The notes beneath the pieces are model-generated. The model did not search any database and had not been told where the DNA came from. It saw only the letters and a list, made by a program, of their open reading frames with translations. Source: Anolis carolinensis (lineage: Eukaryota). Taken from it: DNA of 64,000 nucleotides. Location: NCBI RefSeq assembly GCF_035594765.1, contig NC_085844.1:148940107-149004106 (forward strand), given 5' to 3'. Shown piece after piece: positions 593 through 27,240 of the stretch. Each line of letters starts with the position of its first letter. Positions within the stretch are counted from its first letter, which is position 1. A program made the translations under genes and the position numbers.

Positions 593-692
593 CAGGGCCA
601 TAGCCAGAAAAAAAATTTTGGGAGGGGTTTTGAAAATTTGGGGGGGGGTGTTGAACCCCTAACCCCCCCCCCCCCCCCCAGCTACAGGCCTG
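593..692. mobile_element. Short hAT-like MITE remnant
   Basis: Ends CAGGGCCATAGC...GCTACAGGCCTG form an imperfect TIR around G/C runs; a similar end occurs at ~15248. Confidence 0.45.
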
Positions 693-2129
693 TCAATATC
701 TGCTTGAGATAGTGCCTGGAGGGACTCTTAATTTTTTGCATCTCATAGACTTAGCATGGGGATTTGGTTAACCAGTTAAAATTCATGAGTAAACCAGGTT
801 TTTTTAAATCTGAAATTTTGGAGGGCCTGACCCTTGGGGTATTTCTTGGTAGCCCCCTTGCCCCGTGTTCCAAATTCTACAAAGCATATCAGCAATGGTG
901 TTCTGTATTCTGGGTAGTCTATTTCACCCTGGGATCGGGAACATATTGGGACGTCTTGCAGTGCTTTAAAAGGTTTAACTTGGACTTTTCTGTGACTTTC
1001 GTTAATGCATGGTATATCCTTTAATCTGTGCTGCAGCACAAATAGGTGACATGTGTTTTGTGGCTGCCTCAGTTTCAAGTTGTCTTGAAGCCACATTATA
1101 TGGTCAGTATAGATTAGCTAAATAGAACGTATTCCTTTCTCAATACATTTCAATACTCTTCATCAAAAGAGGGCATAAGGTCCAAAGAATACACAAGGAG
1201 GGCATTGGGTTGCTTAGGCAAGCTCACTTTTGCTGAGCTTGACAGTGATGCCTCTAATACCTGGAACAGATAAGCAAGGTTTCTATTCAAATTCTGGTGT
1301 ACAAATCTATATCTGGGATGCCCCTTTGTGTGAAGGACACCTTTACATGTATTTTGAAACATATGATGGTCCCTTCTCTCATGCACCAAATGTATAGAAA
1401 GTGGGAAGGGACAATCACATGGAGTGTCAAGGGCAAAGATAGTGTTCATGTTCCCCATGGTCATCTGAACACCTCAACACAGCTAATGATAAAAACCCTA
1501 GTCTTGCTCCATGGCTGTCTTGCATAGTTAGCTGAGCTACAAACACTCAGAGTGACCTCCTGCTAGTTAATATAGATGGATACATTAAGAATGCCACTCT
1601 TTCCATGCTGGGTGTTTTTTGAAACCCAGACAAGTCATTCAAAACCCTACCTTCTAGCTGCAGCAGGCTGATTTCTTTGGTAGGGGAAAGCCTGTTGCAG
1701 ATACCGTGCAAGTTAATTTATTGAAGGGTTTACCATTCCCTTTGGTTCTGATCCCAAGTTATAAAGAAAATAATTTAGTTTAGTAAAGTGTCCTTCATGC
1801 TCAGTGCTCACAAAACCCTTTATATTATAGCAATGATTTAAATTTAAAAGGGGAGAAAAGACAGAATGGCACTGCTGTCCAACCTGCAGGTTCATGAAAA
1901 ACAATTAACTTTATCCAGCAATATATGTTCCAGCTGTCCAAATGACAATTACAAAAAAACCCCCAACTACACCTTCATTTTTATTGCTCTGTAGTGTAAT
2001 TTTTTTTGCAAGGAACTCAAATTAATTAATATTTACATGTCCAATTTTTGCCCTGAAAATCCTATGTGTGTGGGGGACAACTGATTTACAGGTTTAATTG
2101 AATTAAGGTAATTTTATAGATCTTTTCTG

Positions 2130-2290
2130 GTCTTTGTTTAGGCCTGATTTGGGAATACAAACAGCTTTGGTTGGTTTGTTGAATAACACATGCGAGGAAT
2201 TAGACAAGTAGGGGTGCCTATCTTCATTTTACTGAACCACTCAACAGCATTTGATAAGGTCTTCCATAGTATACTAGGATCTTACTCAGC
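2130..2290 (+). mobile_element. Old degenerate L2 RT fragment
   Basis: Decayed FRP..G..TALV....ELD....ILLNHSTAFDKVFHSIL, corresponding to the L2 RT LLDLSAAFDTVDH region. Confidence 0.6.
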
Positions 2291-2351
2291 GTGGGCTCAG
2301 GAATACTGTTCAGAACTATGTGTAAGTTTTGTGCAGACTACATACCCAAAT

Positions 2352-3636
2352 GTCGCCAGTCGCCAGTCTGATAGCGGCGGATCAGCGCTACTGGTACTTC
2401 TCGACCTTACCGCAGCGTTTGACACCGTTGACTATGATCTACTGATTCACCGTCTCGCCATGTCCGGAGTTTGCGGTCAGGCCCTCGATTGGTTCAACTC
2501 ATTTCTGCGAAACCGGAGCCAATGCGTGGAGTATATGGATCAAGTCTCTGACAGATCTCCCCTCCTATGTGGGGTACCCCAAGGTGCAATTCTCTCCCCT
2601 CTTCTCTTCAACATCTACATTAGACCCCTTGCGAGTTTGGTTCGGAGTTTCGGCCTAGACTGCTATCAATATGCGGACGACACCCAACTCCTTCTGCGCC
2701 TGGAGCCTGGAGCAACGTCAATACCAGACAATTTCACCTTATGTCTGGAGGCTCTGTCGAACTGGCTACGTGCTAGCAGACTGAAGGTGAACCCGGCAAA
2801 GACCGAGATTCTCTGGCATGGCCGCTCAACCGGTCTGACCCATTTGCTACCCACCTTCGATGGTGCTGCCCTATCTCCTTCGCCTACCGTTAAGAGCCTG
2901 GGTGTCGTTTTAGATTTGCAGCTGAAAATGGAAGTTCAGGTCGCTGCTGCTAGCAAACAGGCCTTTTTCCATCTACGACAAGCGAGGCAACTGACACCCT
3001 ATCTGATGAGGCGCTGGCAACGGTCATCCATGCCACGGTCACGTCTAGGCTGGACTATTGCAACGCCCTGTATGTTGGCCTTCCGATGTCCACGACCCGA
3101 AAGCTCCGTATTGTTCAGAATGCAGCAGCCAGGCTACTCACAAGAACACCCATGAAATGCCACATAACACCAGTGCTGCAGCATCTGCATTGGCTTCCAA
3201 CTGATTACCGTGGTCTATATAAGATGCTAGTTTTGACCTTCAAAACTCTTTATGGCCAGGGCCCATCGTACCTTAGGGACCGTCTCTCCTTCTCCCATCA
3301 TCGGAGGTCGCAACGACCGTCCCAACGAGACTTACTTTCTGTACCGGGTCCTAGAGAAGTGCACTTGGAAAGGACCAGACGCAGAGCTTTTTCTATTTCT
3401 GCCCCTGCCTTATGGAATGCCTTGCCGCCCTATATGAGAGCCATGCGTGAGTTAGGGCCTTTTACCCTCGCACTCAAGACCTGGCTCTTTACTAGAGCTT
3501 TTAATCTATGTTAATTTTATTAATATTTTTATGTATGTATTTTTATCCTTTACAATTTTATCTTGTAAATCGCCTAGAGCATCGTGGATGGAGGGCGATT
3601 AATAAGTTATTAAATGATGATGATGATGATGATGAT
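2352..3636 (+). mobile_element. 5'-truncated young L2-clade LINE (RT and C-terminus, one frameshift)
   Basis: LLDLTAAFDTVD, GVPQGAILSPLLFNIY, YADDTQL, SRLDYCN, QNAAARLL, LHWLP motifs. Frameshift near 3003, stop at 3514, 3' stem-loop and (TGA)n tail; CpG-rich. Confidence 0.92.
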
Positions 3637-3896
3637 ATTGTATTTTCTGTGCAGAAAGTAATATATCTGTTATTATCTACCCAAAATAAGAGTTTTGGGG
3701 GCAAAACAACTGCTTGCACATTTTGAATATAATAAATTCTGAATTGTGAAAATTCTCATCAATCGAAGGTCAAGTTTTCCTGATATGCAAGACAATGTAT
3801 TCTCCAAATATTTGAAAAGTGGTGGGATCCTCAAAGTTAAAGGCTCTGTTTTAAGTCATATGCTATCTGATATTCACATGAAATCACTATGTGGAT

Positions 3897-4159
3897 GGAG
3901 CCCCTAGTGGTGCAATGGGTTAAATCCTTGTGTTGGCAGGACTGCTGACCAAAACATCAGCAGTTCGAATCCAGGGAATGGGGTGAGCTCACGTCTCTCA
4001 GCTCTAGCCCCCCATGTGGGGACATGAGAGAAGCCTTTCATAGGATGGTAAAACATCAAACATCCGGGTGTCCACTGGGCAACATCCTCGCAGATGGCCA
4101 ATTCTCTCACACCAGAAGTGACTCGCAGTTTCTCAAGTCGTTCCTGACACACAAAAAAA
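3897..4159 (+). mobile_element. tRNA-derived Anolis SINE (AnolisSINE2-like)
   Basis: Pol III box A/B head (TGGTGCAATGGG, GTTCGAATCC), body shared with copies at 46294, 47805 and 49004, A-tail. Confidence 0.85.
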
Positions 4160-6188
4160 CCTGATGTGGATAATAAGCAGATCTGTCTTTTCTGGCCAGT
4201 AAGTGAGCTGCTGAAGTCTCTCAATGTAGCAGTGGATTGAATGCGAGCTGCAGAGAGAGGTGGGTAATTTATTATCATCATCATCATCATCATCATGCCT
4301 GTGTGATCAATGAAAAATGTTTCAATACTCATTATGAAATTAGCGGGTGCAGATAATCATTTCTAAACTGTTTCTAAAATATTGTTTGGGGTCTGTATGG
4401 TAACTATAACGATATTTGCTATTTTTCGTTAAGCAATTGTGCAAGGGAGGGGGTGTCCAACCCCCTCTATTCTGGCAGGCAGGGAAAGCATTGCCAAACC
4501 ACTCCCAACAGATGCCAATCCAGCCTTTGAAATAATAACAACAATAATAGGACTTCATTCCTGATCTACAAAATAATGTCTACTATAGATTTTTCTTCTT
4601 CCACAGAAAGCCGCAATCAAAAGGACTTTTAGACAGCACTCCATGCTGTGGTCTATCAAAACTTAAAATATGTTAAGGCAATGTATAGTCTTCTAAATGT
4701 TGGACTATGTTATGATTTCTAGCATCCTTCACCAATGAATATGCTGACTAGGGCTAATGAGAATTATAATCCATCTGAAGGAAGACAGATTGCACCCTCC
4801 TGACTTACAATGCAATAAAAACATTACTTAGTCTTTAAAGGATCAGAGCACTCTTGCAGTTGTTCTCCTATAGCAGAATAATATGACTACCTTCTTGGAA
4901 ATGAGAATGGTAGACATTAATCATAATGGTTTCTTTTCCTTTCGTGCATCTGAATTTATTAGTGTACTCGAGCATGGTTCTTGGTCCTTGACACAGCCTT
5001 TTTAAAGAGGAAGAATGCATGATGGATGCTTAGATGCTCTGAGACACACATTTTGCATCTTCAACTTCACTGGTGTGGTGGTCTACTTGCAGACACTGGT
5101 GCATTACACCATTGTGTTCAGTTTAGATTTTTGCATATACATCCAGATTATATATGGTACTATGGAAATGCCAAAAAAAGCTTTGTTGCTCTCCCATGGA
5201 TGATTATGGTTTTCTTGTTTTTAAAATGTATATGCTCTGCATATTTTAGGTTTTGAGCTGCATTATAAATAGCAAATCTCTTTGATAAATCTAGAGGTAA
5301 ACTCCCCCTTCTCTTGGTTCATATAACTCTTCCTGTGTTATACTAATAGATTACATAAATGCAAACCGTTGCTAATAATTCCTAAATAAACCTTCTTCCA
5401 CTTCAGCTTCACTGTAATCCATCTCTTATGTCAGATGAACTGTGGTACTTATCCTCCTTACTGCAAAGGCTATAATGCTTCTCCTTATTCATCTCTCATA
5501 CACAGTAATCCTTCCACCTCAACTTTACAGATTTCTAATTTAAATGTAAAATATTCATGGCAGACAAAGGAGCCCTAGTCTAAACAATAGCTCTTATAGC
5601 TAATACAAAGGATTCTGACATTGTCTTTGCCTAATCTTTTTAATAAAATAAGAAAACCCACAGGCTACATAGTGATTTTATTCATCATGATGATTATCTG
5701 TATGTGTGTGTGCGTGTGCATGCACAGAAATGCAGGCTATAATAACAGCAATTAAAAGGGGGGGGGGTCTTTATTCCATGGTGAAGGTAAAACACCTCTT
5801 CCAGAATACTCTGAAGGAAGTCTTCATGTCTGTAGTTTGCATTCTGCAAAGCCATGAGCATGCACAGAGTGTGTGCATGTAGGGTATAAATTAAATGAAT
5901 AAATGAAATCTCCCCACCTATTTTTTTTTAAAAAAATGTATGTGTCTACAGTCACATTAAGTGATCAAGGCCTCAAGCTTAGAAGGCTTTAAACAGGGCT
6001 TTAAAGCATTCCTGGAGGTCAGTCCTATCAAAGCTATTTGCTGGGTGTGATAACTAAACAGACCTTCCTCTTTGGATTTCTGGTGTCAAATGTAAGTAGG
6101 TTCAGTGTGCTGAAGCATGACCAGTTCTGTTTTTAATTCTTAAAGGTAAACAGTGTCAAACAGTTGTAGAAACCAAACCAGTTAAGAT

Positions 6189-6475
6189 GTAGAGTTGTCC
6201 TCCATATCCGTGGATTCCGCATCCATGGATTCAACCATCTTGAATGCAATTTTCCTGCTTCTTGGCAGGGGGTTGGACTGGATGGCCCATGAGGTCTCTT
6301 CCAACTCTATGATTCTATGACTTGAAAACTTATTAAAATAAAAACTCCAAAAAGCAAAGCTTGGTTTTGTCATTGTATATGGGGGACACCATTTCACTAT
6401 CCCATTGTATATAACAGGATTTGAGCATCCATGGGTTTTGCTATGCAAGGGCAGGTCCTGGAACCAAACCTTCCC
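6189..6475 (+). mobile_element. TcMar/Tigger-like MITE interrupted by a CR1 3' tail (6240-6320)
   Basis: ATCCGTGGATTCCGCATCCATGGATTCAACC subterminal motif. The inserted CR1 3'UTR ends in (ATTCTATG)n and is flanked by CTTGAA repeats. Related copies at ~16457-16695, ~60820-61025 and ~61830-62103. Confidence 0.7.
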
Positions 6476-7004
6476 AGATTAGGATAGCCATGAAGCCTTG
6501 GAACTTGTTCCTCATTCCCCCACCCCCTAAAAACCTATTCACATCACATCCATCTTAATCAGCATTACCCTCACTGACTGTCCTAACACTTTTAACTCTT
6601 TTCCCAAATAGCCCACTCTTCACACCATTATGAGGAGTGTGATTTGCTGGCTCTGTGTTTGCCCAGCTCGCAATGTCCAGACCTATCAGAAGTGGGCAAT
6701 GTTCAGACCTATCAATGTTGTTGGACAGCATCCTACTTGAGCCTTATTATTAGCTAAGGTAGCCAGGGTTGATGGGAGTGTAGTCCTACAACATCATGAT
6801 ACCTTTACACATGGATAGAACTAAGATTCTACATAATTGCCAAGGCTGTTTTTGGAGAGTTGCCAGTATTTAAAATGCCCCATCAGGCTACAAATGGTTG
6901 AATGAGAAATTCCAATATAATACAACTAGCTGTGCCCGGCCACGCGTTGCTGTGGCAAAGTATGGTGGTATGGGAAATAAAGTATTGAGGAATTGGTGGT
7001 AGTT

Positions 7005-7331
7005 AAGGTCAAGGGTAAAGGTTTTCCCCAGACATTAAGTCCAGTCGTGTCTGATTCTGGAGGTTGGTGCTCATCTCCATTTCTAAGCCGAAGAGCCGGC
7101 GTTGTCCGTAGACTCCTCCAAGGTCATGTGGGATGACTACATGGAGCGGCGTTACCTTCCCGCCGGAGCAGTACCTATTGATGCACTCACATTTGCATGT
7201 TTTCGAACTTCTGGGTTGGCAGAAGCTGGGGCTAACAGTGGGGGCTCTCTCCGCTCCCCCAATTCAAACCTGTGGCCTTTCGGTCCAGAAGTTCAGCAGC
7301 TCAGCGCTTTAACACGCTGCACCATCAGGGG
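7005..7331 (-). mobile_element. Sauria SINE inside Helitron 1
   Basis: (ACCTTT)-type tail, AATAGGTACTGCTCCGGCGGGAAGGTAA core, tRNA-like head. Confidence 0.8.
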
Positions 7332-7485
7332 ATATTATTTCCTAAAGGTTGTGAATATACAATATTTCTGATTGGTTTTTTTTTGTTTGTTGGAGGCAAG
7401 TATGAATGCTGCAATTAGGAAAAATGATTCGGATGTAATGGCCTTGCAGCTTTAAAGCCTGGCTGTTTCCTCCCTGAGTGAATTT

Positions 7486-7835
7486 TTTGTTGGGAGGTGT
7501 TAGCTGGCCCTGATTGTTTCCTGTCTGGAATTCCCTTGTTTTCAGAGTGGTGTTGTTTGCGATATTTTATGTGCTTCTACTGTCTGTGGCCCTGAGAAAA
7601 CAGAGGATTTTCCAGACTTTGATGATGGGAATACTTTGTTGGGAGGTGTTAGCTGGCCCTGATTGTTTCCTGTCTGGAATTCCCTTGTTTTCAGAGTGGT
7701 GTTGTTTGCGATATTTTATGTGCTTCTACTGTCTGTGGCCCTGAGAAAACAGGATTTGCCAGACTTTGATGATGGGAATACTTTGTTGGGAGGTGATAGC
7801 TGGCCCCGATTGTTTCCTGTGTGGAATTCCCCTGT
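7486..7835. repeat. ~148-bp tandem repeat (about 2.4 units) inside Helitron 1
   Basis: TTTGTTGGGAGGTGTTAGCTGGCCCTGATTGTTTCCTG recurs at ~7487, ~7636 and ~7782; homologous triplet in Helitron 2 (12800-13280). Confidence 0.9.
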
Positions 7836-8052
7836 TTATTTACTGTCCTGGTTTTAGAGATTATATTGTTCTGCATTATTCTATCCCAGTAATTATTTCA
7901 TATTAAAGAAGAATCTCACTTATCCAACATTCGCTTATACAATGTTCTGGATTATCCAACGCAGTCTGCCTTTTCATAATCAATGTTTTTGTAGTCAGTG
8001 TTTTAAATTCATTGTGATATTTTAGTGGTAAATTTGTAAATACAGTACAGTA

Positions 8053-8370
8053 CAGTAGAGTCTCACTTATCCAACATAAACGGGTCGGCAGAACGTTGGA
8101 TAAGCGCATATGTTGGATAATGAGGAATTAAGGATAACCCTATTAAACATCAAATTAAGTTATGATTTTACAAATTAAGCACCAAAACATCATGTTAGAC
8201 AACAAATTTGTCAGAAAAGTAGTTCAGTACACAGTAATGCTATATAGTAATTACTGTATTTATGAATTTAGCACCAAATATCACGATATATTGAAAGCAT
8301 TGACTACAAAAATGCGTTGGATAATCCAGAACGTTGGATAAACGAGTGTTGGATAAGTGAGACTCTACTG
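8053..8370 (+). mobile_element. Tc1/mariner MITE nested in an opposite-orientation copy of the same family (~7905-8568)
   Basis: TIR CAGTAGAGTCTCACTTATCCAAC / GTTGGATAAGTGAGACTCTACTG flanked by TA. Confidence 0.88.
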
Positions 8371-8583
8371 TAAATACTACATAGCATTACTGCGCATGGA
8401 ACTACTTCTTCTGTCAAATTTGTTGTATAATATGATGTTTTGGTGCTTAATTTGTATAACGATTACCTAATTTGATGTTTAATTGGCTTTTCCTAAATCC
8501 CTTCTTATTATCCAACATATCCACTTATCCTGCCGGCCTGTTTACGTTGGATAAGTGAGACTCTACTGTATATTGATAATCTT

Positions 8584-11129
8584 CTGAGGGAGATAATGGC
8601 GAAATATTATAAAAATCTATATAAGGAAGAGAGGGTAATGCAAGGGAACTTAAATATCAGAGAAAAAATTGCAGAGGAAGACAGAGAGTTATTAAACCAA
8701 CCAATAACGCAAGAGGAAACAATAAGGACAATTAAAGGGTTAAAGGGAGGCAAGTCACCAGGGCCAGATGGATTTCCAGCAGAATATTATAAAGCATTTA
8801 TGGAAGAGTTGGCACCACACCTAACAGAATTGTTCAATGAAATATACACTAAGCAAAAAGTCCCCCTAACATGGAAAGTATCAGAAATTATAACTATACC
8901 CAAAAAGGGGAGAGATTTAACACAACCAGGGTCATACAGACCCATTAGTCTATGCAATCAAGATTATAAAATATTTACAAAAATTTTAGCAAAAAGTTTG
9001 GAAACAATAATGCCAAAAATAATCAAAGAGGATCAATATGGATTTGTGAAGGGAAGAAAAATTGGGGATCCAATAAAAAATGTAGTAATTGCAATGAATC
9101 ATGCAAATTCGAATAAGAAAAAAATGGGAATTCTCAAATTGGATGTTTACAAAGCATTTGATAAAGTCAATCACAATTATCTGTTAGGATTATGTCAACA
9201 GTTGAATATGGGGGAAAACTTTTGCAAAACACTGCAACAATTGTACAGCAACTGTAAAGCAAAAATAAGGGTGAATAATGGAAGGACAGGAGAGATACCA
9301 ATTTTAAATGGTACAAAACAAGGTTGTCCATTATCCCCCACTTTATTTGTAATAGCGATAGAAATGCTAGCTGAAAGTATCAGGAATAGCACCAATTGGA
9401 CAGGGTACAAAATAGAAAAGGAAGGAGGACAAAAGGAAGAAATAAGGCTTAATTTCTTTGCCGATGATGCAATGATTATTACAAGTCAACCGTTAATTAT
9501 GGTAAAAGATATTATTAAAAAACTGGAAGAATTTAAAAATATATCAGGACTATTCGTTAATATTAAAAAGTCAGAGATACTATGTCTTAATACCCCACCA
9601 AGGGAACAACTGGAGATTAGGAAAATATCAGGGTTAAGATTAGGATTAAAGAAGCTGAAATACTTAGGAGTATGGATATATAAAAACCCAAAGAGTATAG
9701 TCAAGGGGAATTATAAACAAAAATGGAAGGTAATAGAGAAACAGTTTAAGAATTGGGAAGGAAAAACATTAACAAGAGTGGACAATAAGGGACAAATGGT
9801 TAAATGCAAAAGAGGAAGAGGGAGGCTGGGGGATTCCAAGTTTAGAAGTCTATCACGATGCGTTTCAAATCCAAAGATTATTGGAAATACAGTATACTAA
9901 AAAAAAATGGGCAAATATGGAGAAGATAATAAATAATACTAAAGAAAAAGAAATAATATTTAGGGAATGGAGTAGGAGAGAAGAAGCAGAATTTAAGGAA
10001 CCTTTTAAAGGAACAATAAAAGTGTGGAAAAAAAGAAAGAAGAAGCTAAGTCCAGGCAATGAGAATAAGATGGCAACTATATGGCAAATTAATTACAATA
10101 ACAACGAAATTATAGGCAGAACATTGAGATCAATTGAAAGTAGAGGGAAAAGGTTAGTGGAGGATTTGTACACAATAGATGGAGACCCTGTAGAACAAAA
10201 AGAAATTCAGAATTGGATAGGATCAGGGAATTGGATTCAAAGCTGGGCTATAAGACAGGAAATTTTTAGATTGAGAGAAAAAATTAGAGAACAGGACAGT
10301 CCATTTGAGAAGGTGATTAGGAAATGTTTGAGAGAGGAAAAGAAGGTGGCAGGAGATCTGTATGAACAAATTATAACGGTAAAAGAAGAAATAGAGGAAA
10401 TTTTCCAAACATGGAGAATGGACATGGAAATTGAGAGGGAAGATATACAAAGGGAAATAAGTAATATAGCAAAAGAAAAGTACAATGTATTAAGGGAAGC
10501 AAGAAGGAAAATGTTACAAAAATGGTACAGAACTCCTGCACAACTTTCACGGTTTTTACCAGGGATGAAAGATAGGTGTTGGCACGGTTGTGAACAAAGA
10601 GGGGTGTTCAATCATATGATATGGGAGTGCGATCGGGTGCAAGAATACTGGAGAATGATTGAAGGAGAAATCAATAGAATGCTAAATCTACAAATAGTAA
10701 TAGTTAATAGAAATGTACTACATGCAAGGATAACAGAAGTGAAGAATATACAAAAAGAAAAAATGATTGACAAATTAATAGCATGTGCACAAATTGTTTT
10801 AGTGAGCGGTTGGAAAGATAAAACAAAATGGACTCTGACGAATTGGTATAAGTATATAATTGATATGTTAAATGTAGAAATCACAAATTGCAAATGGAAT
10901 AATATAGATAAAATTGAAAATGTTGCAATAATCAAGGGGATGTGGGAACCAGTTAAGAACTATTTAGAGAATGTACTAAGATGTGGAGTGGAAAAATTAA
11001 GATTGAGATTGATATTTCAAATGTAACTTCTGTAGTTTGTTGTATAAAGTGTATGTACAAGGAGGGGAGGGTGGGAGGGTGGGAGTGGGATAAGATGACA
11101 AAACAACAATAAAAAAATTAAAAAAAAAA
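8584..11129 (+). mobile_element. 5'-truncated L1-clade LINE (ORF2 RT plus CCHC domain) inserted in Helitron 1
   Basis: KSPGPDGFPAEYYK, YRPISLCNQDYKI, GTKQGCPLSP, FFADD, KYLG, CWHGC..H....C motifs. G-rich 3'UTR, AATAAA, poly(A); 9-bp TSD GATAATCTT (8575-8583 / 11130-11138). Confidence 0.95.
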
Positions 11130-12618
11130 GATAATCTTAAATTATCTGCTTAGAACTGGATTATATGAGGCCCCTTCTTCACAGCTGTATAAAATGCACA
11201 CTGAAGTGGATTATATGGCAGTGTGGAGTCAAGATAATCCAGTGCAAAGCAGATAATATAAGATTATAAATGGGTTATATAGCTGTGTTGAAGGGCCTTG
11301 AGTCTACACTGCCATATAATCCAGTGCAAATTAGATAATCTGTGCAAGAAGTCTAAGTGAGGCCTAAATCTGCCTGTCCCCTAACTGAAACCTGGCTGTC
11401 CCTTGGTTGCTAGGCAACCAAGTGGGCAGAGATTAGCCTTCTAAACTGGCAGCAATTGGATAAAAAAAATTATTGCTCTCCCTCTAATTAGGACTTTATT
11501 TTTCTTTTCTTTTTGTTGTATCAACCTTGAGGCATGGATGATGGGTTGTGTTGTCAAATTTTGAGGTTGGGGGGCCTGTACTTTTGTTGTTTTGTGAATT
11601 GCCGTGATGCCATCACTCTTTTATATATATAGATGATGACAGTTAAAGTGGAATTATAGTGCTATCATAGTGTAATGTAAACAACCTGCCCATTATTGGA
11701 GCAGATGGATTTTTGGCCTCCTTTAGAGTTGAAATCTTTGTCATATTTTTGTGGATCTCTTATGCAATTATATCACTATTCTTCCTGAATTTCTTGGATT
11801 TTAATAAGCAGTCTTGTGATATTTTAAAAACTGTTTATGTTTATGCTGTAAATATCTGTTTATCTTCAAGGTGTTACATTATTTTTTCTCTTCATTGTTT
11901 TCACTACAGTAGTGTAATAGTCTCTCTTTTGGAAATTAGATTTTAATGATTTCCTCCTAGTGTTGTGAAATACAATATGTTAACACTGTTGTGCCCCCTT
12001 ACTGATAAGCAACTACTGAGAGTTAAAGAGGTCCATTTTCTTGTCAATTTTCTGTCTGAATTTTTTTATCTCTTCTCATGAGTGATCTCTAGTGTGGTGT
12101 GCAGGAAAAAAGACCCCTGTTGCAAATCCATACATCACTCATGGGAGAAGAGTTAGGAATGTTAAGCAATTGCTTCCCAAGCAGCAGAAGAATGGACCTC
12201 AAGTGATCCCAGAATCTGCTTACTAGTAAGTAGGGCTTAGAGGACCTCCATAGCTCCTACACAACCCCTAACCCTGGGTTTGCATGGGGATTGTAAATAC
12301 ATAGGATTTGCAAATGCATAGCTGTAGGATACATGCCCACAATTGCCTAACAGGATTCCAGTCAATATTTATTAAACCCTCCTATGAAACAGAGAAACAT
12401 CTGATTTTTTAAAATTATGAAGCACTAGCTGTGCCCGGCCACGCGTTGCTGTGGCTTTTTTTTAGTGGTGTTGGTCAATCTACATTAGGTTTTATTTTTG
12501 TTGTGACTGTCAACAAACATTATACAGTATTATTTTTTCATTTATTATTTTAAAGAAATATGATAGGATATTACACTATAATATATAATAGTATACGACT
12601 ATTTCACAATATTAGTAG

Positions 12619-12659
<41 letters not shown>

Positions 12660-13723
12660 TATTGTATTGTTATTAGTATTATATTGTAGTATATATATAA
12701 TTATATATATAATTATAATATTATTAGCAGTATTATATGTATATACAATGTATTATATTATTATATATATTAATATATTGCAAATTGGCCCCAGAGTATG
12801 GAATGGCCTTGCAGTTTCAAAGCCTGGGTAGTTCCGTGTGTTGGGGGGGGGGGGTGGGAATGCTTTGTTGGGAGGTGCTAGGTGGACCTGATTGTTTCCT
12901 GGATGGAATTCCAGTGTTTTCAGAGTGTTGCTTTTTATTTACTGTCCTGAGATGAGAAAGTGATGAGTACGGAATGGCCTTGTACCTTCAAAGCCTGGCT
13001 GCTTCTGTGCCTGGGGGGGGGGGGGAATCATTTGGTGGGAGGTGTTAGCTGGGTGTGGTTTCCTGGATGGAATTTGTGTGTTTTCAGAGTGTTGTTGTTT
13101 ATTTACTGTGCTGAGATGAGAGAGTGATGAGTACGGAATAGCCTTGTAGGTTCAAAGCGTGGGTGGTTTCCTGTGTGAAGGGGGGAATCGTTTGGTGGGA
13201 GGTGTTAGATGGCCCTGATTGTTTCCTGGATGGAATAGCTGTGTTTTTAGAGTGTTGATCTTTATTTACTGTCCTGAGATGATATTGTTGTGTATTATTG
13301 TACCAGAGTAATTATTTCATATTACAGTAGAATCTCACTTATCCAACATTCGTTTATGCAGTGTTCTGGATTATGCAATGGAGTCTGCCTTTTAATAGTC
13401 AATGTTTTTGGAGTGAGTGTTTTCAATTTATTGTGATATTTTGGTGGTAAATTTGTAAATACAGTAATTACTACATAGCATTACTGCGCATGGAACTACT
13501 TTTTGTGTCAAATTTGTTGTATAACATGATGTTTTGCTGTTTAATTTGTATAATGATTACCTAATTCGATGTGTAATTGGTTTTCCTGAATGCCTTCTTA
13601 TTATCCAACATATTTACTTATGCAACGTTCTGCCGGCTTGTTTATATTGGATAAGTGAGATTCTAGTGTATATTTATAATGTTATATTATTTGTTTAGAA
13701 GTGGATTATATGAGGTGCCTTCT

Positions 13724-13724
13724 G

Positions 13725-13777
<53 letters not shown>

Positions 13778-14212
13778 GTCTTGAATGATTATCATTGTTA
13801 TAAAAATAATAACGTACTATTATTAGTTGTTATTATATTGTTGAATGATTATTATCAATGTTATAATAATTATTAATTTGTGAATAATTCTCACTATAAT
13901 AATAATAATAATTTTCTATTATTACGAATTGTTAATACATTGTTGAATGATTGTCAGTGTTATAATAATTATTATTATGACAGCCTTGAATGTTTATTAT
14001 AGTTAATATAATAATTAGTTATTATTATTAGTTATTATTACATTGTTGAATGATTATCAGTGTTATAATAATAAGAACTGACTATTATTATGAATTATTA
14101 TGTTTTCGAATGATTATCAGTATTATAATAATAATAATAAATTAGTATTATTATTGGTTATTATTACATTCTTAACTGATAATCAGTTATTATTATATTA
14201 ATAATAATTATT
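13724..14212. repeat. (TTA)n plus AT-rich minisatellite inside Helitron 2
   Basis: About 7 copies of TTGAATGATTATCAGTGTTATAATAATA-like units. Confidence 0.85.
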
Positions 14213-15860: not shown

Positions 15861-18659
15861 CAAGATAATATTTGTATGGTCCCTTTGCCTTAGAGAATTC
15901 CTTGATATACAATTCAACATCCTTATTTTTAGTTTGCTATAATATGATTATGTTTACTTTGATTTGGAATTTGTCATCTCCTTTTGGCGAACTGATCTAA
16001 CGTAACCATCTATCTATTTCCATTTTTGATAAAAGCATTTGCCAGAATCCCACAGCTCTGTTACAAATGCATAACCTACATTTACGCATCCATAAAAGCT
16101 AAGTATTTACGATACTTACATAGCTCCCAGTTTAGGGCTACATAGGATCTGTGAAAACCTCCAAAATTTCATTTACTGGGAAGCAACTGCTGGGATTGAT
16201 CTGGGCTCATTCTTTTGTTGATTGAAGAGTAGCTGCCTGAAGTTGCAGCTTCTCCCACCATGCAAGCATTTTCTGCTTCAAAGAGGATTAGTGTTGGGGT
16301 CTTTTTTCTGCCTGTTGCACTAGAAATTGCTCACAGGAGGGATGGGAACATTAGGGAGCTATCGATCTCATTGACTGCTTCCTAGTAAGTAAGATCAGGG
16401 GAGGGGGGGGAGTTGGCTAGAATCACACAGATCACACAGGATTCTGCCAGTTGAAAGTACAATGGACCCTTGGTATCTACTGGGGTTCTATTCAAGGACC
16501 TCACGTGGATACTAAATTCTTGGATGCTCATATCTTGTTATATACAATGGTGTAAGAAATCATGTGTGTTTTTAAAATATAAATGGGAAAAAAATCATGG
16601 ATTAAAAAAAATTGCAGGGAGGAGAGGAATATTTTTAAGCCATGGGTAGTTGAATCAATGGATGTAGACTCTTTGGATAAGGAGGGCTAACTTTTCCTTA
16701 AGCAACATTTTAAACCTGTAAGTAAAAACTATGAGTTTAACTCCCACATTTAGAACATTATATGTATTATGGACTATATCTTGAATATATTTAGCATTCA
16801 TACAAATGACTCCAAGAAAAGTGTCTTTGAACTTAACTGCATTCATTTAGTCTAGCCTACCTGCCTATATTCACCTGGATAGAAAATGAAATTTTTGCTA
16901 CGCGGGATGCTCTGCTTAAAATGACAGTCTCATCTCCATCTTGTCTATACTCAAATAGCTTCCAAATAATATGTTTTTTTTCAGATGAGTGATTAGAGAG
17001 ATTGTGTAATGCTTGTGTATTCAGGAATATGATGCCTCATTCAAAGCATCATCGTCACAATACATTTTCAATGAACATGCAGAAAATGAAATATTTCTTA
17101 TTTACTTCATTCTTTTTTAATATGCACATTTTTGAAGTTGTGATAGGCACCTAAAAGTACTATATTTTGCCTCTTTTACATTGTTGTCACTACCTTGATC
17201 AGACATTGGCTTTTTATACATTTGTTTTATATAACAAATGAAGTTGCTAGGTCATCCTCGCATTTGTCACAAAACTTTTACCCTCCCAAATGCACCTTCA
17301 TGCATGCTAAGTAATACCGTTCATCTCTAGTAGGGGCTCTATTATTAGAAGTCAGGAAATGGGACAAGGGTTGGGAACCCTATCTAAGCAGGAACATTTT
17401 AATAACCTTACCAAACACTGGAATGCTTCAACTACAAAAACAAACACTAAGGCCCTGCCCTGGATTTCAGTCCGCTTCACAGTGGTGGAATGCACATAGA
17501 AAATCAAATTCATAAAATAGATCTGGGATGTATAAAGGAAATGGGAATAGAAACGCTGTTTCTATTCATAACCATCATACTTGATCCAGTCCCATTCCCT
17601 CCACCTAACCTGATTTGGCAAGTTCAGTCCCTATTCTATTTTAAACCTTCCAAAAATCCTGAACTTGGAAAATCTGATTCTGATAAAGCAAAATAAAACA
17701 GCATTTGGCTTTTTGTTGTTGCTAAAGCATCATACTGCTGGTTCATGGTATATGTATGGTCTACAATCATTCCAAGGTCCCTTTCACATCTAGATTATGG
17801 AGCTATGTATTGCTGATCCTATACCTGTGAACTTGAGCTTTGTGGCCTAAATAAATAATTTTACATTTGTCTCCAATGAATTTCATTTTCTTAATTTTTG
17901 TCCGATTTTCTAGTTTATCTAACTATTTTTTGCAATCTGTACTTTTCTTTCAATGTGTTAGCCACCCTTCCACATTCCAGTGGATGTAATATTTGTCTTT
18001 GCTTGTTCAGTAGCAATGATTTCCTTTCAGTTTGCACAGCTAAAAAATGTGGAAAGAATCAATAAAATAGTGAGAGGTAGCATCAATGGGTTAGATTCCC
18101 TTCCTGGCTCATTAAAAAGGACAGAACATTGTTTGATAGTGGACTGGTTTCTTCCTGGGCGGAAAAACTCAAAAGGTGATGCTGAGTTAACCCTGTTTGA
18201 TTCCTTGGCCAACAGCTTGCAGGGTTCCTTGGGCTTTGGTTTTGTCTCCTAAGCTATTTAACATATAAATTAAATCACTAGGAAATGCCATTTTGAGTTT
18301 TGGATTTCAGTGCCCTTAAAATAGAGCTACATAACTTCAGACAAACTCTTATAGTGTTTTCATCCATGTGTCAATTAATAATAGTGGCTGCTTTCAGAGT
18401 GGTTGCACTTTAGAGACCTGTGTTTTGTAAAAGAAGATGATCATTACTTCAAATTACTTGTCACAATTCAGTCTCAGCCTGCTGTTCTGTTATGGAACAT
18501 AGGGCAAGACACCCTTTTCATAGCTATGTATGCTATCCGATTTAGGTTGGTTATAGTTGACCATTACTCTATGATGGACTTCCCAAGATTGTGTGTATGG
18601 CTGCTTCCATTGGGATGCCATCCCAGCCTTGGTGCAGGGCTCCACTATTTTGTGAGCCG

Positions 18660-18760
18660 GGTTGTTATGTATTTTCCAGGCAGTATGGCCATGTTCCAGA
18701 AGTATTCTCTCCTGATGTTTCGCCCACATATATGGCAAGAATCCTCAGAGGTTGTGAGGT
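18660..18760 (-). mobile_element. Penelope-like element terminal fragment with a hammerhead core
   Basis: Minus strand CCT-CTGAGGA-...-GAAAC-ATC-AGG followed by GAACATGGCCATACTGCC; similar to 20529-20620. Confidence 0.7.
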
Positions 18761-20528: not shown

Positions 20529-20620
20529 CTGAAGATGCCAGCCAAAGATGCAGGCGAAACGTCAGAAAAAAATGCTACTATAACACAGCCATACAGCCCA
20601 GAAACCAAACAGCACCCCAG
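20529..20620 (+). mobile_element. Penelope-like element terminal fragment with a hammerhead core
   Basis: CTGAAGA-TGCCAGCCAAAGATGCAGGC-GAAAC-GTC-AG...CAGCCATACAGCCCAGAAA. Confidence 0.7.
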
Positions 20621-20794
20621 CATGCTAATAGTTCATTGAGACGTTTTAAAGCAACAGTTTTAAGCAAGCACAATAAAACTAAATAAAATTCTAAGATATC
20701 AATCATGATGGGCTAGAACATTTCCAGTTATTGTATTGCTTTAATGATATTGTGAGTACTAGATTGGACCAAAAGTGTAATTCTATGTAGGGAA

Positions 20795-21987
20795 AGTTGG
20801 GTCGATACAGGGAACGCCGTGGATGTAGCGTACCTAGATTGGAGTAAGGCTTTTGACAAAGTCCCTCACAACCTTCTGGCAAACAAACTAGTAAAATGTG
20901 GGGTAGACAAAACTACGGTTAGGTGGATCTGTAATTGGGTAAGCAAACGAACCCAAAGGGTGCTCACTAATGCGTCGTCTTCATCTTGGAAAGAAGTCAC
21001 AAGTGGAGTGCCGCAGGGTTCTGTCCTGGGCCCGGTTCTGTTTAACATCTTTATTAACGACTTAGACGATGGGTTAGAAGGCACGATCATCAAGTTTGCA
21101 GATGACACCAAACTGGGAGGGATAGCCAACACTCCAGAAGACAGGAGCAGAATTCAAAACGATCTTAACAGATTAGAGAGATGGGCCGAAACTAACAAAA
21201 TGAAGTTCAACAGGGACAAATGCAAGATACTTCACTTCGGCAGAAAAAATGGAATACAAAGATACAGAATGGGGGACGCCTGGCAAGACAGCAGTACATG
21301 TGAAAAAGATCTTGGAGTCCTTGTGGGCAACAAGTTAAACATGAGCCAGCAATGTGATGCGGCTGCTAAGAAAGCCAATGGGATTTTGGCCTGCATCAAT
21401 AGGGATATAGCGTCTAGATCCAGGGAAGTCATGCTCCCCCTCTATTCTGCCTTGGTCAGGCCACACCTGGAATACTGTGTCCAATTTTGGGCACCGCAGT
21501 TGAAGGGAGATGTTGACAAGCTGGAAAGCGTCCAGAGGAGGGCAACTAAAATGATCAAAGGTCTGGAGAACAAGCCCTATGAGGAGCGGCTTACAGAACT
21601 GGGCATGTTTAGCCTGCAGAAGAGAAGGCTAAGAGGAGACATGACAGCCATGTACAAATATGTGAGGGGAAGTCATAGGGAGGAGGGAGCAAGCTTGTTT
21701 TCTGCTGCCCCGCAGACTAGGACGCGGAACAATGGCTTCAAACTACAGGAAAGGAGATTCCACCTGAACAACAGGAAGAACTTCCTCACTGTGAGGGCTG
21801 TTCGGCAGTGGAACTCTTTGCCCCGGACTGTGATGGAGGCTCCTTCCTTGGAGGCTTTTAAGCAGAGGCTGAATTGCCAACTGTCGGGAGTGCTTTGAAT
21901 GCGATTTCCTGCTTCTTGGCAGGGGGTTGGACTAGATGGCCCATGAGTTCTCTTCCAACTCTATTCTATGATCCTATGATTCTATGA
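20795..21987 (+). mobile_element. 5'-truncated young CR1 LINE with an uninterrupted RT ORF (20819-21898)
   Basis: YLDWSKAFDKVPH, SGVPQGSVLGPVLFNIFINDLD, KFADDTKL, LYSALVRPHLEYCVQFW motifs; CR1 3'UTR hairpin and (ATTCTATG)n tail. Confidence 0.96.
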
Positions 21988-23170: not shown

Positions 23171-25477
23171 TTGTTTTTCTGACAAGCAAAGCATGGCAGG
23201 ATGATAGGACCAGTCTCCTCCCACAAATGAATGATGCTGTAAGGACAAGAAATAGGGACTCTTGCAAGACCTATCATAATTCTTTATCAGAGTGTCACTC
23301 TCTGGCATGAGTGGTCTAGTCACATAATTCTACAGCTTCCTGCTTGAAAGCAGTGGAGACCTCAATTGATTCAGGAAGCTGCCTATAAATGTGGTCTTCA
23401 GGATCATTCATGGTCCATAAGCACAACTGAGAATATGAAGCAGTTGTGAGGTCCTGACTTATGACATCATAACAGACGAATATGATATGAACTACAAAAT
23501 TTATGCGGAAAGATTATTTTTTGCACAAAAAAAAGCTATTTATTGCAATTGAAGTGCTGTTTTCTATTAAAATCAATGAAATGTGAATTTCATATTCACA
23601 ATTCAGAATGAGTACTGAATTGTGAATAGGCTTCAGAAACTGTGTGGTTTTCAAAGACTTTTTCACATCAGGGAAAAAATTGCTTAAATTACTCATTTGG
23701 GAAGAAAATGAGTAAAGAACTACATTCTCATTCTATGTATACCTTTTTGGAAGCAAGTACCTTTGAAGGAATGGGAAAGTCCTGTTTAAATGATTCCCCT
23801 GCATTCATTTTTAAAGTTCCATTCTTTCCATCCTGAATAGGTTTCCAAGTTTGATAAACGAAAATTCTCATTTGTCTGCTTAGAATCAAAAAATGATGTA
23901 TGTGTGTGTGCCGCACTAGCATGAGGTTTACTTGGCAACATTTGCTCAGAGTCTCCCTTTGAGAATGAACAAGAGTGACTTGCTAAGATCATCCAGTGGG
24001 CTTCCATGGTTATTTGGGAATTCATAACCTGTTCTCTAGAGTCCTAGTCCAAAACTCAAACCACTATATCACACGGTGTTCCATTTCTTAGTCCATGTAA
24101 TAAACTTGTCAGACTTTTGCAACCTGAATATAATAAATACTGTATGCTCTGACCACACAGAAGGAGACAAAATTTCTTGTTCAGCTTCCCTGTATAAGAA
24201 ATGGAGCATATGATGTACTGGGTTAACTATCTTCAGTGACTGGAACTATACGGTCAATGCGGTTAATTAATCTGCAGAAAGATGCTTGTGGACTCACATA
24301 TGCATGTCTCAAGCTATTAATTATGGTTGCAAGAAATGAAGATTGTATGTGAAATCTTGAAGAAATGAGATACAGATACAGACATTAAATTAATCGATTT
24401 CAACTACTGGTGCATCTCTTCTACATTTTAAAAAAAAGTTTACTAGAATACTTTAAAATCCTTTTAATGGATTAATTGCAAAGTTATTACTATAGAAACA
24501 CGAGAAAAAAATGTTATCTTGGATGATAGGATGCCTCTGCTAAGATGTAAACACAGATACCTACTACAGTACACTCCTGAATTAGTTTTATTTTATGAAA
24601 AACTATATGCAAATGTGATTAGCTTATCAATTACATGATTCATGATTACAATAGGAAAAGTCTGTTTTTTTAAAGCAAACTTCCTAAATAAGTACTTCCA
24701 TTTCTTTTACTGTTCTAAATTATTTTTTAAAATAAGCAGTTGACTACAAAGTCATCTTTAAATATACTCAACAGATTTAACTATTTTTGCAGATTTCTCT
24801 ATCTGGTTTGACTTGTGTTCCTCACAAGCAGTAACCAGACCTCAGGGATGCTTTTTTTTTGTCATCTGTTCCTTTGGATTCCCAAATAATTTTGTTTATA
24901 AGGGAAAAACACCCTGGTCAATTGTCTCTTCAGAAGCTTCCAGGAGCATTAATTTCCTTTTAAAATAGGTCACTAGGTACTTTAACGTTTTAACATTTTA
25001 AATCCCCTGGTTTTCAAAATCAGAAGTGGATTTTTGGGCACTTTCCTTTTCATTCTTCAGGGCTTTTTTGCGATGGAATTCTTTAGAGTCTTGGATGTTC
25101 CTAGGGCAGAAATGTATCCTTCTGAACCATCTAGATTTCACCTCTGTTTATGTGGCTATCCTGCTTTCCCCAGGTTCAATGGCCCGAGAATAGGGGATGA
25201 GACTTACCATGGTCATCTTGTCACTATAGTCACAACAACCATGAAGCAGCAGCCACAGAAGCCCAAAGTGCTCTTGGTCACCGCTCATCGTCCCCCCCCC
25301 CCACCTTAGTCATGCTGGCATGTTTGCAAACATTGGCAAAGGTGACGAGTGACAACCAGGTGCCAGCACTAAGATGCCAAGCTGGTTCAGACCTGCTGGA
25401 CAGTGTGGATTTACTCCTACCACTATGGTAGAATACAGGTGGCCAGTGTGGAGTCCTCTGGGGCTGATCCAGAGTAC

Positions 25478-26200
25478 CAAAAAAGAAAATGGGTTCCCTG
25501 GAACTACAAAGACAAGTATCCACTATTACAGTAATACAGAAATCATTAAACCTAAATTTAGTTCAATACATCAATATGAAAACAGATACAAAAGGCGTTG
25601 CTAAACAATCAAACAAAGGACTGTTACATTCACAGTAAAAACAATATTTTAAACATGCATACTCTGCAAACAGTTTGATTCCAATGCGTTTGCAGAGTAT
25701 GCGTGTTTAAAACTTAGATCTTTCTGTGAGCATGGCTTTTACATTATCTTTGTTGTGTATAGTGTATGTCTCATGTAACTATATGTATTGTAAATAACTG
25801 GTAGCCACTATATATGTTCCCTATAGGATCCACATTTTAAAAACTCAAAAAAAAAAACTGAAAAAAGGACTACAATCCACCTGATGAAGATTCTTTTGAG
25901 TTGAAACTGGTTGTGGTTTTGGAGTCTACTATTTATAATAAAGAAACAAGAACAATCATTATATATAAGAAGAGGACTCAATTTGTGTATGTGGAACAAT
26001 TAAAGAACTAAAGAACATTTATTGTTTATGAGAAGAGAAGTAAATTCATGCTTCAAGAGAAAAATATTTTTACTGTGAATGTAACAGTCCTTTGTTTGAT
26101 TGTTTAGCAACACCTTTTGTATCTGTTTTCATATTGATGTATTGAACTAAATTTAGGTTTAATGATTTCTGTATTACTGTAATAGTGGATACTTGTCTTT
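25478..26200 (+). mobile_element. Foldback (inverted-repeat) Penelope-like insertion
   Basis: 15-bp direct flank GCTGATCCAGAGTAC (25463-25477 / 26201-26215). ~135-bp near-perfect inverted arms 25507-25641 / 26067-26201. Internal hammerhead followed by AATAAA. Confidence 0.7.
25868..25926 (+). ncRNA. Minimal type I hammerhead ribozyme motif
   Basis: Stem I CCAC/GTGG (extending to GACT/AGTC), core CTGATGA 25881-25887, stem II GATTC-TTTT-GAGTT, GAAAC 25903-25907, short stem III, cleavage triplet GUU ending at 25912. Confidence 0.75.
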
Positions 26201-27240
26201 GCTGATCCAGAGTACTCCACTCCAGATCAGCCCTGGGATAGTTGACATGTGTAGAGGTGCCCCCAGGTATCCATTTGTACAGGTAAGGCAGGACATTGGC
26301 ATAGACTAATAAAATTGACGAATGACTATGCTAGCACAGTAAGATCCTGAAAATGTGTTTCACATGTAGTGGAAAAACTTTTGAATTACTTTATAAATCT
26401 AAGTGTGGACAAGAATGAGGAAAAATGGAAGCAAAATAGGAGCCCTGTTCTGAATTTTAAGGCAATAGCCTTCTACACCATGGATAAAAATTCTTTCACC
26501 AGCAAATTCTAACTTTATCACAAAAATCCAGGCTCCATTTAAAGCCGAGATTGTCATTCTTCTCCTGACCTCTTTGAACACCAAATTTTGGGGTCTTCCA
26601 TAATGAAACAAATGTCCAATAAGAAACCCTCTCGAGGATGGTCAGTAGCGTAATATCTCCAACCTCTTTATAATCACAGCAGGAGTTGGAAAAATCTACC
26701 TCTAAAGGTTATTTCACACTTAAGCCATTTTCGGATAAGAAGTTACTTTTAATTATGTGACATTAGGAATGCTGCTTTTCAATTTCAGGACAGTTGGGAA
26801 AGAGGATATATGTTTCAAAAAGACTTGAAACTACATGCCAGGATGAGCAAAGGTGAAGAATTACACAGCTAGTAATCGCTTTGCCGATTTCCTGAGTAAG
26901 CTTGTCACAGTAGGACAGGTGAAGAATTTTAACCTCATTTGAATTTTGAGCAATTTTGACCAACTGCATATTCTAAATTCAAATCGTATTCACCTTGCAG
27001 CTGCTTTAGCAAAATAATTTCTCCCCAAAAAAGTGAAGAAAAGAAGCATTTATGACAAGTTTTCTATTGGCACTATTCAAGGAAGAATGGTAAAGTGGCA
27101 TTGGAAAACTTGCCATAAATTTTATTAATAAAGATACAATGCTGGTCCTATTATTGTTCTACAGAGAACATCTAATCATGTTTCAGCCCTTGATCAACTT
27201 AACTTATAGTTTACTATTTGTTTGTTCCACATATAACTGA

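What the first reader, a model, noticed from the sequence alone, without database searches (positions are those of the whole stretch)
25463..26215. Foldback retro-insertion with a 15-bp TSD, 135-bp inverted arms and a well-formed hammerhead ribozyme
The 723-bp insert is bounded by an exact 15-bp duplication and has no poly(A) tail or ORF. Architecture: 29 unique nt, arm, a second 66-bp palindrome (25647-25712), hammerhead (25868-25926; intact CUGAUGA/GAAA core, extended stem I, stem III ACTGGT as a likely CpG-decayed ACCGGT palindrome, GUU site), AATAAA (25937), then the inverted arm. It landed in the loop of a host hairpin (GGGCTGATC...GATCAGCCC). Minimal hammerheads and inverted terminal repeats are hallmarks of Penelope-like elements, but this sequence does not resemble the other two Penelope pieces here. 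It may be an uncatalogued non-autonomous ribozyme-bearing (retrozyme-like) family whose RNA folds into a long rod.
Basis: partly seen in the sequence, partly recalled or inferred. Interest (0 to 1): 0.75.

Follow-up and report, generated by a model that had tools for sequence, protein, structure and literature searches.

The report
Penelope-like retroelement, two ends head-to-head
This is one truncated copy of a high-copy lizard repeat that carries a minimal hammerhead ribozyme, and its fold-back shape is the ordinary inverted-end-plus-tail layout of Penelope-like retrotransposons, likely made when both cut DNA strands primed copying of the element's RNA.

Summary
In detail: exact 15-bp duplication, 135-bp arms (134/135), central palindrome, minimal hammerhead, no ORF. 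The interpretation needs correcting. Contigs from public runs show a high-copy dispersed family (577 and 599 contigs laid in two DNA runs). The 29 'unique' bases are the family's optional 3' tail. The central 'loop' is family sequence that normally lies upstream of the direct copy. So the insert is two 5'-truncated 3' ends joined head-to-head; the inverted one carries the tail and lacks about 350 nt. An inverted end, a 30-40 nt tail on one side, a junction palindrome and a target duplication are the published layout of Penelope-like elements. It is not a retrozyme as defined (no tandem units), and the fold-back is not the family's fixed form. Two details remain open: the target resembles the tail (10/15, background 0.0005) and lies in a host hairpin. 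The autonomous partner, the empty site, expression and Repbase/Dfam status were not established. Verdict: new member of a known kind; interest 0.27.

The parts
25463..25477 (+). left target-site duplication (15 bp); also covers the left arm of the host hairpin
   Evidence: exact repeat
25478..25506 (-). 29-nt tail of the inverted copy: the optional 3' extension of the family
   Evidence: continues the arm on the minus strand; family depth rises here and family ends cluster at 25481 and 25503
25507..25641 (-). inverted copy of the element's 3' arm, 135 bp
   Evidence: 134/135 to the right arm
25642..25646 (-). joint in the inverted copy, where about 350 nt (equivalent of 25713-26064, with the hammerhead) are missing; 4-nt A microhomology and 3 extra bases
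   Evidence: comparison of the two copies
25647..25687 (-). 5' segment of the inverted copy: left half of the central palindrome (25647-25671) plus 16 nt of upstream family sequence that forms the apparent loop
   Evidence: loose ends at 25686 and 25688
25688..26200 (+). direct, 5'-truncated, tail-less copy of the element's 3' end (513 nt, no ORF)
   Evidence: continuous family cover over 25688-26065 and body-to-arm joints; no ORF
25868..25926 (+). minimal type I hammerhead motif; predicted cut after 25912; differs from the family majority at 25891 and 25908
   Evidence: not matched by Rfam
25937..25942 (+). AATAAA hexamer in a 70% A+T insert; function untested
26067..26201 (+). 3' arm of the direct copy; its last base is shared with the right duplication
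26201..26215 (+). right target-site duplication; matches the first 15 nt of the tail at 10 of 15
26219..26233 (+). right arm of the host hairpin (13/15 complementary to 25461-25475)
   Evidence: pair I13

Best explanation
The insert is two 5'-truncated copies of the 3' end of a high-copy, hammerhead-bearing repeat, joined head-to-head between a 15-bp duplication, and it was likely inserted by a Penelope-like retrotransposon's enzyme priming reverse transcription from both cut strands. Shown: the duplication, the two copies, the tail on the inverted copy only, the family and its two clusters of 3' ends. Inferred steps: (1) a GIY-YIG endonuclease/reverse transcriptase nicks the two strands 15 bp apart; (2) one strand primes at the tail-less start site (right junction) and the other at the start site about 29 nt further out (left junction); (3) both cDNAs stop at nearly the same place, 16 nt apart, and are joined, which gives the central palindrome; (4) the inverted copy loses about 350 nt, by a template jump or by later deletion from an unstable long palindrome; (5) CpG decay follows. 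The hammerhead is the pseudo-LTR motif of the parent. Here it is single and predicted to need a partner copy for helix III, so this locus is most likely inert. Confidence is about 0.9 for the Penelope-type origin and about 0.6 for two-strand priming.
For: (4 of the 24 runs listed; stretch 25280-26065): 577 and 599 contigs laid in X2 and X14; summed depth 476-13,861 over the element against 7.26 on the left flank in X14, highest at the 3' end. Loose ends with unrelated flanks (agreement 0.43-0.48, median about 250 nt) cluster at 25481 (13 and 16 contigs) and 25503 (7 and 7): tailed and tail-less ends. Contigs run on past 25686/25688 with shared upstream letters (5 and 6 in X2, 3 in X14, 3 in X18), and an X18 loose end puts the 'loop' letters directly before 25688 in direct orientation. 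Family majority is C at 25891 (over 99%) and at 25908 (79% and 78%), which improves helix II and makes helix III palindromic. The tail and the 16 upstream bases are absent from the direct copy, and the middle 350 nt are absent from the inverted copy, so neither half can be a plain snap-back copy of the other. Literature: inverted 5'-truncated copy and 30-40 bp tail at one end (PMC8557442); inverted pseudo-LTR, 31-bp tail, 8-10 bp duplication and junction palindromes (PMC3846280); minimal hammerheads with an unpaired base before helix II and palindromic helix III in pseudo-LTRs (PMC4209133); an anole element cleaves and extends both strands and starts at two sites that bound the tail (PMC11167929). 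One of two metagenome loci with the same hammerhead pattern encodes an RT with a GIY-YIG-type C-terminus (L002).
Against: No RT or endonuclease ORF is linked to this family by DNA: none in the window (tblastn) and no genome held. The L002 likeness is largely built in: the search pattern covers 25 of the 38 aligned letters. The other locus (L001) showed no RT in the ORF scanned. The 15-bp duplication is longer than the 8-10 bp seen, and the target is not AT-rich as reported for the anole Poseidon enzyme. About 290 nt lie between hammerhead and 3' end with no ORF start, unlike that element. No both-sided change in 10 pairs on the three-sequence alignment (500 of 500 shuffles equal). Only 24 of 352 loose-end rows, 40 of 66 variant rows and 15 of 27 joints were shown, X2 and X14 probably share many loci, and summed contig depth is not a copy number. 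PMC3846280 reads such junction palindromes as self-priming rather than two-strand priming.
Confidence: 0.85

Rival explanations
1. Still Penelope-type, but the family is a non-autonomous unit of about 550-600 nt with its own fixed 5' end, moved in trans like a SINE, rather than truncated ends of an ORF-bearing element.
For: No ORF. Some contigs leave the family within about 10 letters upstream of 25688 into long unrelated flanks (6 in X2, 3 in X14; median 131 and 246 nt), and depth over 25685-25870 shows no steady fall towards the 5' side. Non-autonomous Penelope-like elements are in print (PMC8557442).
Against: Other contigs continue at least 30 letters upstream with good agreement (0.73 in X2, 0.97 in X18). 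A preferred 5' end is also what a parent's pseudo-LTR boundary would give. The tool prints only 30 loose letters.
Confidence: 0.3
2. The inverted half arose by self-priming (snap-back) of one cDNA or of an antisense RNA, not by priming from the second target strand.
For: Centred palindrome with 25-bp arms; both arms share the family-minority base at 25601, so they come from one source; PMC3846280 favours self-priming.
Against: Each half holds family sequence that the other lacks, so a snap-back would need further template switches back to the RNA. A single RNA read twice also explains the shared base.
Confidence: 0.25
3. One reading: a retrozyme-like family whose unit is the whole fold-back, transcribed as a rod-shaped self-cleaving or circular RNA.
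For: Very stable predicted rod; intact catalytic core; multi-copy. Whether the exact deletion joint at 25642-25646 recurs elsewhere could not be resolved.
Against: One hammerhead only, no tandem units. Family contigs carry the centre in direct orientation, among them one at depth 136 in X18. Non-LTR retrozymes are defined by tandem units each with a hammerhead (preprint 10.64898/2026.07.22.740005).
Confidence: 0.07
4. A fold-back or MITE-type DNA transposon, or a DIRS-type element, with a chance or captured hammerhead.
For: Long, nearly perfect terminal inverted repeats of unequal length.
Against: 15-bp duplication (DIRS have none, PMC8969392); no internal region complementary to the ends; two alternative end points and 3'-biased depth; family-wide hammerhead.
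Confidence: 0.03

Closest known systems
Endonuclease-bearing Penelope-like elements (Penelope/Poseidon, Neptune, Nematis, Hydra): inverted pseudo-LTR insertions
   Same: Inverted 5'-truncated copy next to the direct one, tail of about 30 nt at one end only, palindrome at the junction, target duplication, minimal hammerhead near the 3' end (PMC8557442, PMC3846280, PMC4209133).
   Different: No ORF seen or linked; duplication 15 bp against 8-10 bp in the rotifer examples; inverted copy has an internal 350-nt gap; clade not determined.
Poseidon_Ac (PAc) of the green anole (PMC11167929)
   Same: Two 3' end points bounding a tail; both-strand cleavage and extension in vitro would give this layout; a PAc-like piece lies in the same window near 18600-18760 (-).
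   Different: No sequence similarity; different hammerhead; no ORF start in the hammerhead; target here is not AT-rich and partly resembles the tail, whereas PAc starts at sites not homologous to the cut DNA.
Two-ORF, probably Neptune-like element in metagenome locus L002
   Same: Hammerhead 32 of 38 identical, placed between the end of the RT-endonuclease ORF and a long non-coding leader.
   Different: Found by a pattern that covers 25 of those letters; no similarity outside the hammerhead; unknown host. A lead for the clade, not an assignment.
Animal non-LTR retrozymes (preprint 10.64898/2026.07.22.740005)
   Same: Non-coding, type I hammerhead, derived from Penelope pseudo-LTRs, present in reptiles; dispersed monomers are described.
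   Different: Defined by tandem units each with a hammerhead; here one hammerhead, an inverted layout, a tail and a target duplication.

Membership tests
Penelope-like element (endonuclease-bearing) | Minimal type I hammerhead near the 3' end: conserved core, unpaired base before helix II, palindromic helix III | tested here: met
   Core and unpaired A in this copy; palindromic helix III in 78-79% of family depth. G10.1 pairs with U, not C, in this copy. Rfam does not match it.
Penelope-like element (endonuclease-bearing) | 5'-truncated copies with an inverted copy adjacent at the 5' end | tested here: met
   family continues upstream of the junction.
Penelope-like element (endonuclease-bearing) | Optional 30-40 nt tail at one end | tested here: met
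   29 nt here; two end clusters at 25481 and 25503.
Penelope-like element (endonuclease-bearing) | Target-site duplication confirmed by an empty site | tested here: inconclusive
   Exact 15-mer repeat; no empty-site contig among the 24 of 352 loose-end rows shown; the right flank was not in the stretch laid.
Penelope-like element (endonuclease-bearing) | Telomerase-like RT plus GIY-YIG endonuclease ORF in full-length members | not testable with these tools
   No genome held; none in the window; only the indirect L002 link.
Penelope-like element (endonuclease-bearing) | Identity with a catalogued Repbase or Dfam family | not testable with these tools
   Neither library is available; it differs from the PAc-like piece in the window.
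Non-LTR retrozyme | Tandem units, each with a type I hammerhead | tested here: not met
   Single hammerhead, no second copy in 64 kb. Tandems elsewhere in the genome not testable.
Non-LTR retrozyme | Self-cleaved or circular RNA | not testable with these tools
   Only contigs were available.
LTR retrozyme | Direct LTRs with type III hammerheads and a 4-bp duplication | tested here: not met
   Inverted arms without hammerhead, type I motif, 15-bp duplication (definition).
DIRS-type retroelement | No target duplication; internal region complementary to the ends | tested here: not met
   15-bp duplication; no such internal region (definition).
MITE or fold-back DNA transposon | One fixed terminus shared by both ends and by all copies | tested here: not met
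   Ends differ by 29 nt at this locus; two end clusters in the family.

The most novel reading that the evidence does not exclude
This family chooses and primes its targets by pairing: the first 15-17 nt of its RNA tail pair with the nicked target strand (10/15 identical, 12/15 with wobble pairs), preferably at host hairpins, and both strands then prime, leaving head-to-head fossils. That would be a homology-guided mode of Penelope integration, opposite to the homology-free start shown in vitro for the anole Poseidon element, testable at once on hundreds of junctions, possibly in a non-autonomous hammerhead-bearing passenger of about 550 nt.
Probability: 0.12. Interest if true: 0.6.

Novelty: new member of a known kind. 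Interest (0 to 1): 0.27.

Why it matters
Mostly it does not: the layout is in print for Penelope-like elements. The modest value is mechanistic. How these elements make inverted ends and tails is still open, and this locus is a clean, young example in which neither half can be a plain copy of the other, which fits the both-strand priming seen in vitro. With hundreds of related ends in the same genome, two-strand priming, target-tail pairing and hairpin preference can all be tested by computation alone. If target-tail pairing held across the family it would add a targeting rule not described in the papers read here.

Tried and rejected
Own genome: none held, so no direct copy count, empty site or ORF link. 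Rfam: no hammerhead at E up to 5 (14 hits: 13 to microRNA hairpin models, all far below gathering score, and one lncRNA) or at gathering score; the microRNA hits are rejected as generic hairpin matches. Hammerhead pattern scans: 0 loci in viral contigs, 0 in prokaryote genomes, 2 in metagenome contigs; of these L002 has an RT, and the one long L001 ORF scanned had no Pfam match. Covariation on three hammerheads: no both-sided change; the aligner gapped L001's helix II, and helices I and III were fixed by the pattern, so the test is uninformative. Expression: no RNA holder listed; X17 and X18 are only guessed to be RNA, so nothing is concluded. X2 has no cover over part of the left flank: no finding. 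A stem-loop around the tail is not supported by folding (z 0.95; 169 of 200 shuffles as good). The majority letters of the 7 + 7 flanks at 25503 do not resemble the tail, which gives no support for general target-tail homology, although tail-like flanks would end elsewhere in such an alignment. Earlier findings of this scan: three look-ups, nothing. Eight paper searches found no description of this family; Repbase and Dfam could not be searched, so this does not show that it is uncatalogued.

Full report
Observation. The 15-mer at 25463-25477 recurs exactly at 26201-26215. The arms 25507-25641 and 26067-26201 are complementary at 134 of 135 positions. The central palindrome has 25-bp arms with one mismatch; both mismatches are at CpG sites. 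The hammerhead core lies at 25881-25887 and 25903-25906, with an unpaired A before helix II and a 2-bp helix III. There is no ORF (longest stop-free run 63 codons; 70% A+T). The rod fold follows from the arms. Rfam does not match the hammerhead, and alone it folds no better than shuffles, as expected for a minimal motif that needs a partner.

Setting. The window is animal DNA rich in retroelements. A piece near 18600-18760 (-) matches by eye the PAc RNA letters in supplementary figure 1 of PMC11167929, so the host is probably an anole lizard; this is my inference. The insert resembles neither that piece nor the one at 20529, and it has no second copy in the window. No genome was held.

Family evidence. 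One search listed 24 runs, all under one organism label and all kept as contigs. I laid 4 of them on 25280-26065, a stretch with the left flank, tail, one arm, the centre and the body. In the two probable DNA runs 577 and 599 contigs were laid, most at 90% identity or more. Summed depth in X14 is 7.26 on the flank and 476 to 13,861 on the element (ratios 66 to 1,909), highest at the 3' end. The tool warns that this is no copy number; it does show a family of many copies with an excess of 3' ends. One X14 contig of 1,479 nt runs from the flank into the tail with one difference, so the left junction is real in that run.

The 29 'unique' bases are family sequence. Read on the minus strand they continue the arm. 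Family contigs leave the reference into unrelated flanks at two clusters, 25481 (13 and 16 contigs) and 25503 (7 and 7), close to this locus's tailed left end (25478) and tail-less right end (mirror position 25507). Only 24 of 352 loose-end rows were shown, and the two runs probably share loci.

The central palindrome is a head-to-head junction. The 16-nt 'loop' is family sequence in reverse: an X18 loose end places it directly upstream of 25688 in direct orientation, and contigs in X2, X14 and X18 run on beyond it with shared letters. So the left part is an inverted, 5'-truncated copy that starts 16 nt further upstream than the direct copy, skips about 350 nt at a 4-nt microhomology, and ends in the tail.

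Ribozyme. None of the 40 variant rows shown (of 66) falls in the two core boxes. This copy's hexamer can still self-pair through wobble pairs. PMC4209133 reports no cleavage for a single minimal motif and low cleavage for dimers; PMC11167929 reports that the PAc ribozyme needs protein and is dispensable for insertion in vitro. This locus has one motif, so it is likely inert. The function of such motifs is still unclear in print (PMC8557442).

Mechanism. Shown: duplication, two copies, tail on one, two end clusters. Inferred: staggered nicks 15 bp apart, each strand priming reverse transcription at one of the two start sites, truncation at nearly the same place, joining, and loss of 350 nt from the inverted half. 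The main argument is that each half holds sequence the other lacks, so neither is a plain snap-back copy of the other, while PAc protein cleaves and extends both strands and uses two start sites that bound the tail. Against: PMC3846280 reads junction palindromes as self-priming, and no ORF has been tied to this family.

Comparison. PMC8557442 describes an inverted 5'-truncated copy next to the direct one and a 30-40 bp tail at one end as general features. PMC3846280 gives an example with inverted pseudo-LTR, 31-bp tail and 9-bp duplication. Retrozymes as defined in the 2026 preprint are tandem, which this is not. A metagenome scan for the hammerhead pattern gave 2 loci. L002 is a 5.4-kb unit with a 127-nt terminal overlap, an RT (Pfam RVT_1, E 3.5e-10), a C-terminus whose nearest clusters carry GIY-YIG, and an upstream ORF with NADAR and a weak GDSL match. 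Esterases in Neptune-like elements are in print (PMC5408684). The likeness to our motif is mostly set by the pattern, so the clade stays open.

Open details. The duplicated target matches the first 15 nt of the tail at 10 positions; 69 of 125,672 window positions on both strands do as well (0.00055), and 44 of 125,660 for 11 of 17. The target also lies in a hairpin of a kind that covers about 1% of the window. Both were noticed after the fact at a single locus. The flanks at 25503 give no support, and PAc starts at sites without homology to the cut DNA. PMC11167929 also cites that the Drosophila endonuclease needs the tail sequence for recognition, so a tail-like target could reflect enzyme preference instead of pairing. 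I give the pairing reading 0.12.

What I saw of each paper. PMC11167929: parts 1-2 of 4, passages, and the scant text of supplements 1 and 2; its sequence file could not be read. PMC4209133: parts 1-2 of 4 and a supplement search in which file 1 was not searched; its reptile hammerhead figures may bear on whether this motif is already listed. Preprint 10.64898/2026.07.22.740005: parts 1-3 of 5; its supplementary family tables were not seen and may include this family. PMC3846280: passages and the Discussion. PMC8557442, PMC7561263, PMC8969392, PMC5408684: passages only. Other papers: search listings only. The labels Sauria SINE, CR1, L1, L2 and Harbinger for neighbouring repeats, and the instability of long palindromes, are recalled and come from no call.

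Verdict. A real feature, correctly observed; an ordinary inverted-end insertion of a Penelope-like family, perhaps uncatalogued. New member of a known kind; interest 0.27.

Noticed in passing
L002 1-5434: Circular or tandem 5.4-kb Penelope-like unit with a hammerhead, an upstream 708-codon frame holding a NADAR domain (E 1e-15) and a weak GDSL esterase match, then RT and a GIY-YIG-type end. A NADAR domain in such an ORF did not appear in my one paper search (listing only).
   Followed up: partly
L001 793-2690 (-): The same hammerhead pattern about 100 nt upstream of a 585-codon proline-rich frame with no Pfam match and no clear similarity to the L002 upstream ORF; possibly the 5' part of a related two-ORF element.
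   Followed up: partly
window 25640-25652 joined to 25802, 25995 and 26038 (joints): Other contigs at single-copy depth (4-9) also jump from different points of the body to almost the same arm start as the inverted copy here; a possible hot spot for template jumps or deletions. The stretch laid ended at 26065, so some may be artefacts. A 101-nt skip at 25725-25827 has depth 64-88, suggesting a shorter subfamily.
   Followed up: no
window 25686-25702: The upstream letters seen in family contigs are complementary to about 7 bases near 25696-25702, so the parent RNA may have a short stem right where both copies were truncated.
   Followed up: no
window 18600-18760 (-) and 20529-20620 (+): Two other Penelope-type 3' ends with hammerhead cores; the first matches the published PAc RNA letters by eye.
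   Followed up: partly
window 25400-25477 and 26216-26270: The host site is low-copy at 80% identity (depth about 7 in X14) but has short motifs that recall decayed Harbinger-type MITE ends (recalled, untested); the host hairpin may be such a remnant.
   Followed up: no
window 8497-11026 (+): Two overlapping long frames (467 and 417 codons) of an L1-like RT, apparently split by one frameshift; other RT fragments at 2187-3514 and 20756-21898.
   Followed up: no
window 25939-25983 and 26001-26046: A 76% identical direct repeat of about 45 nt inside the element, just downstream of the hammerhead.
   Followed up: no
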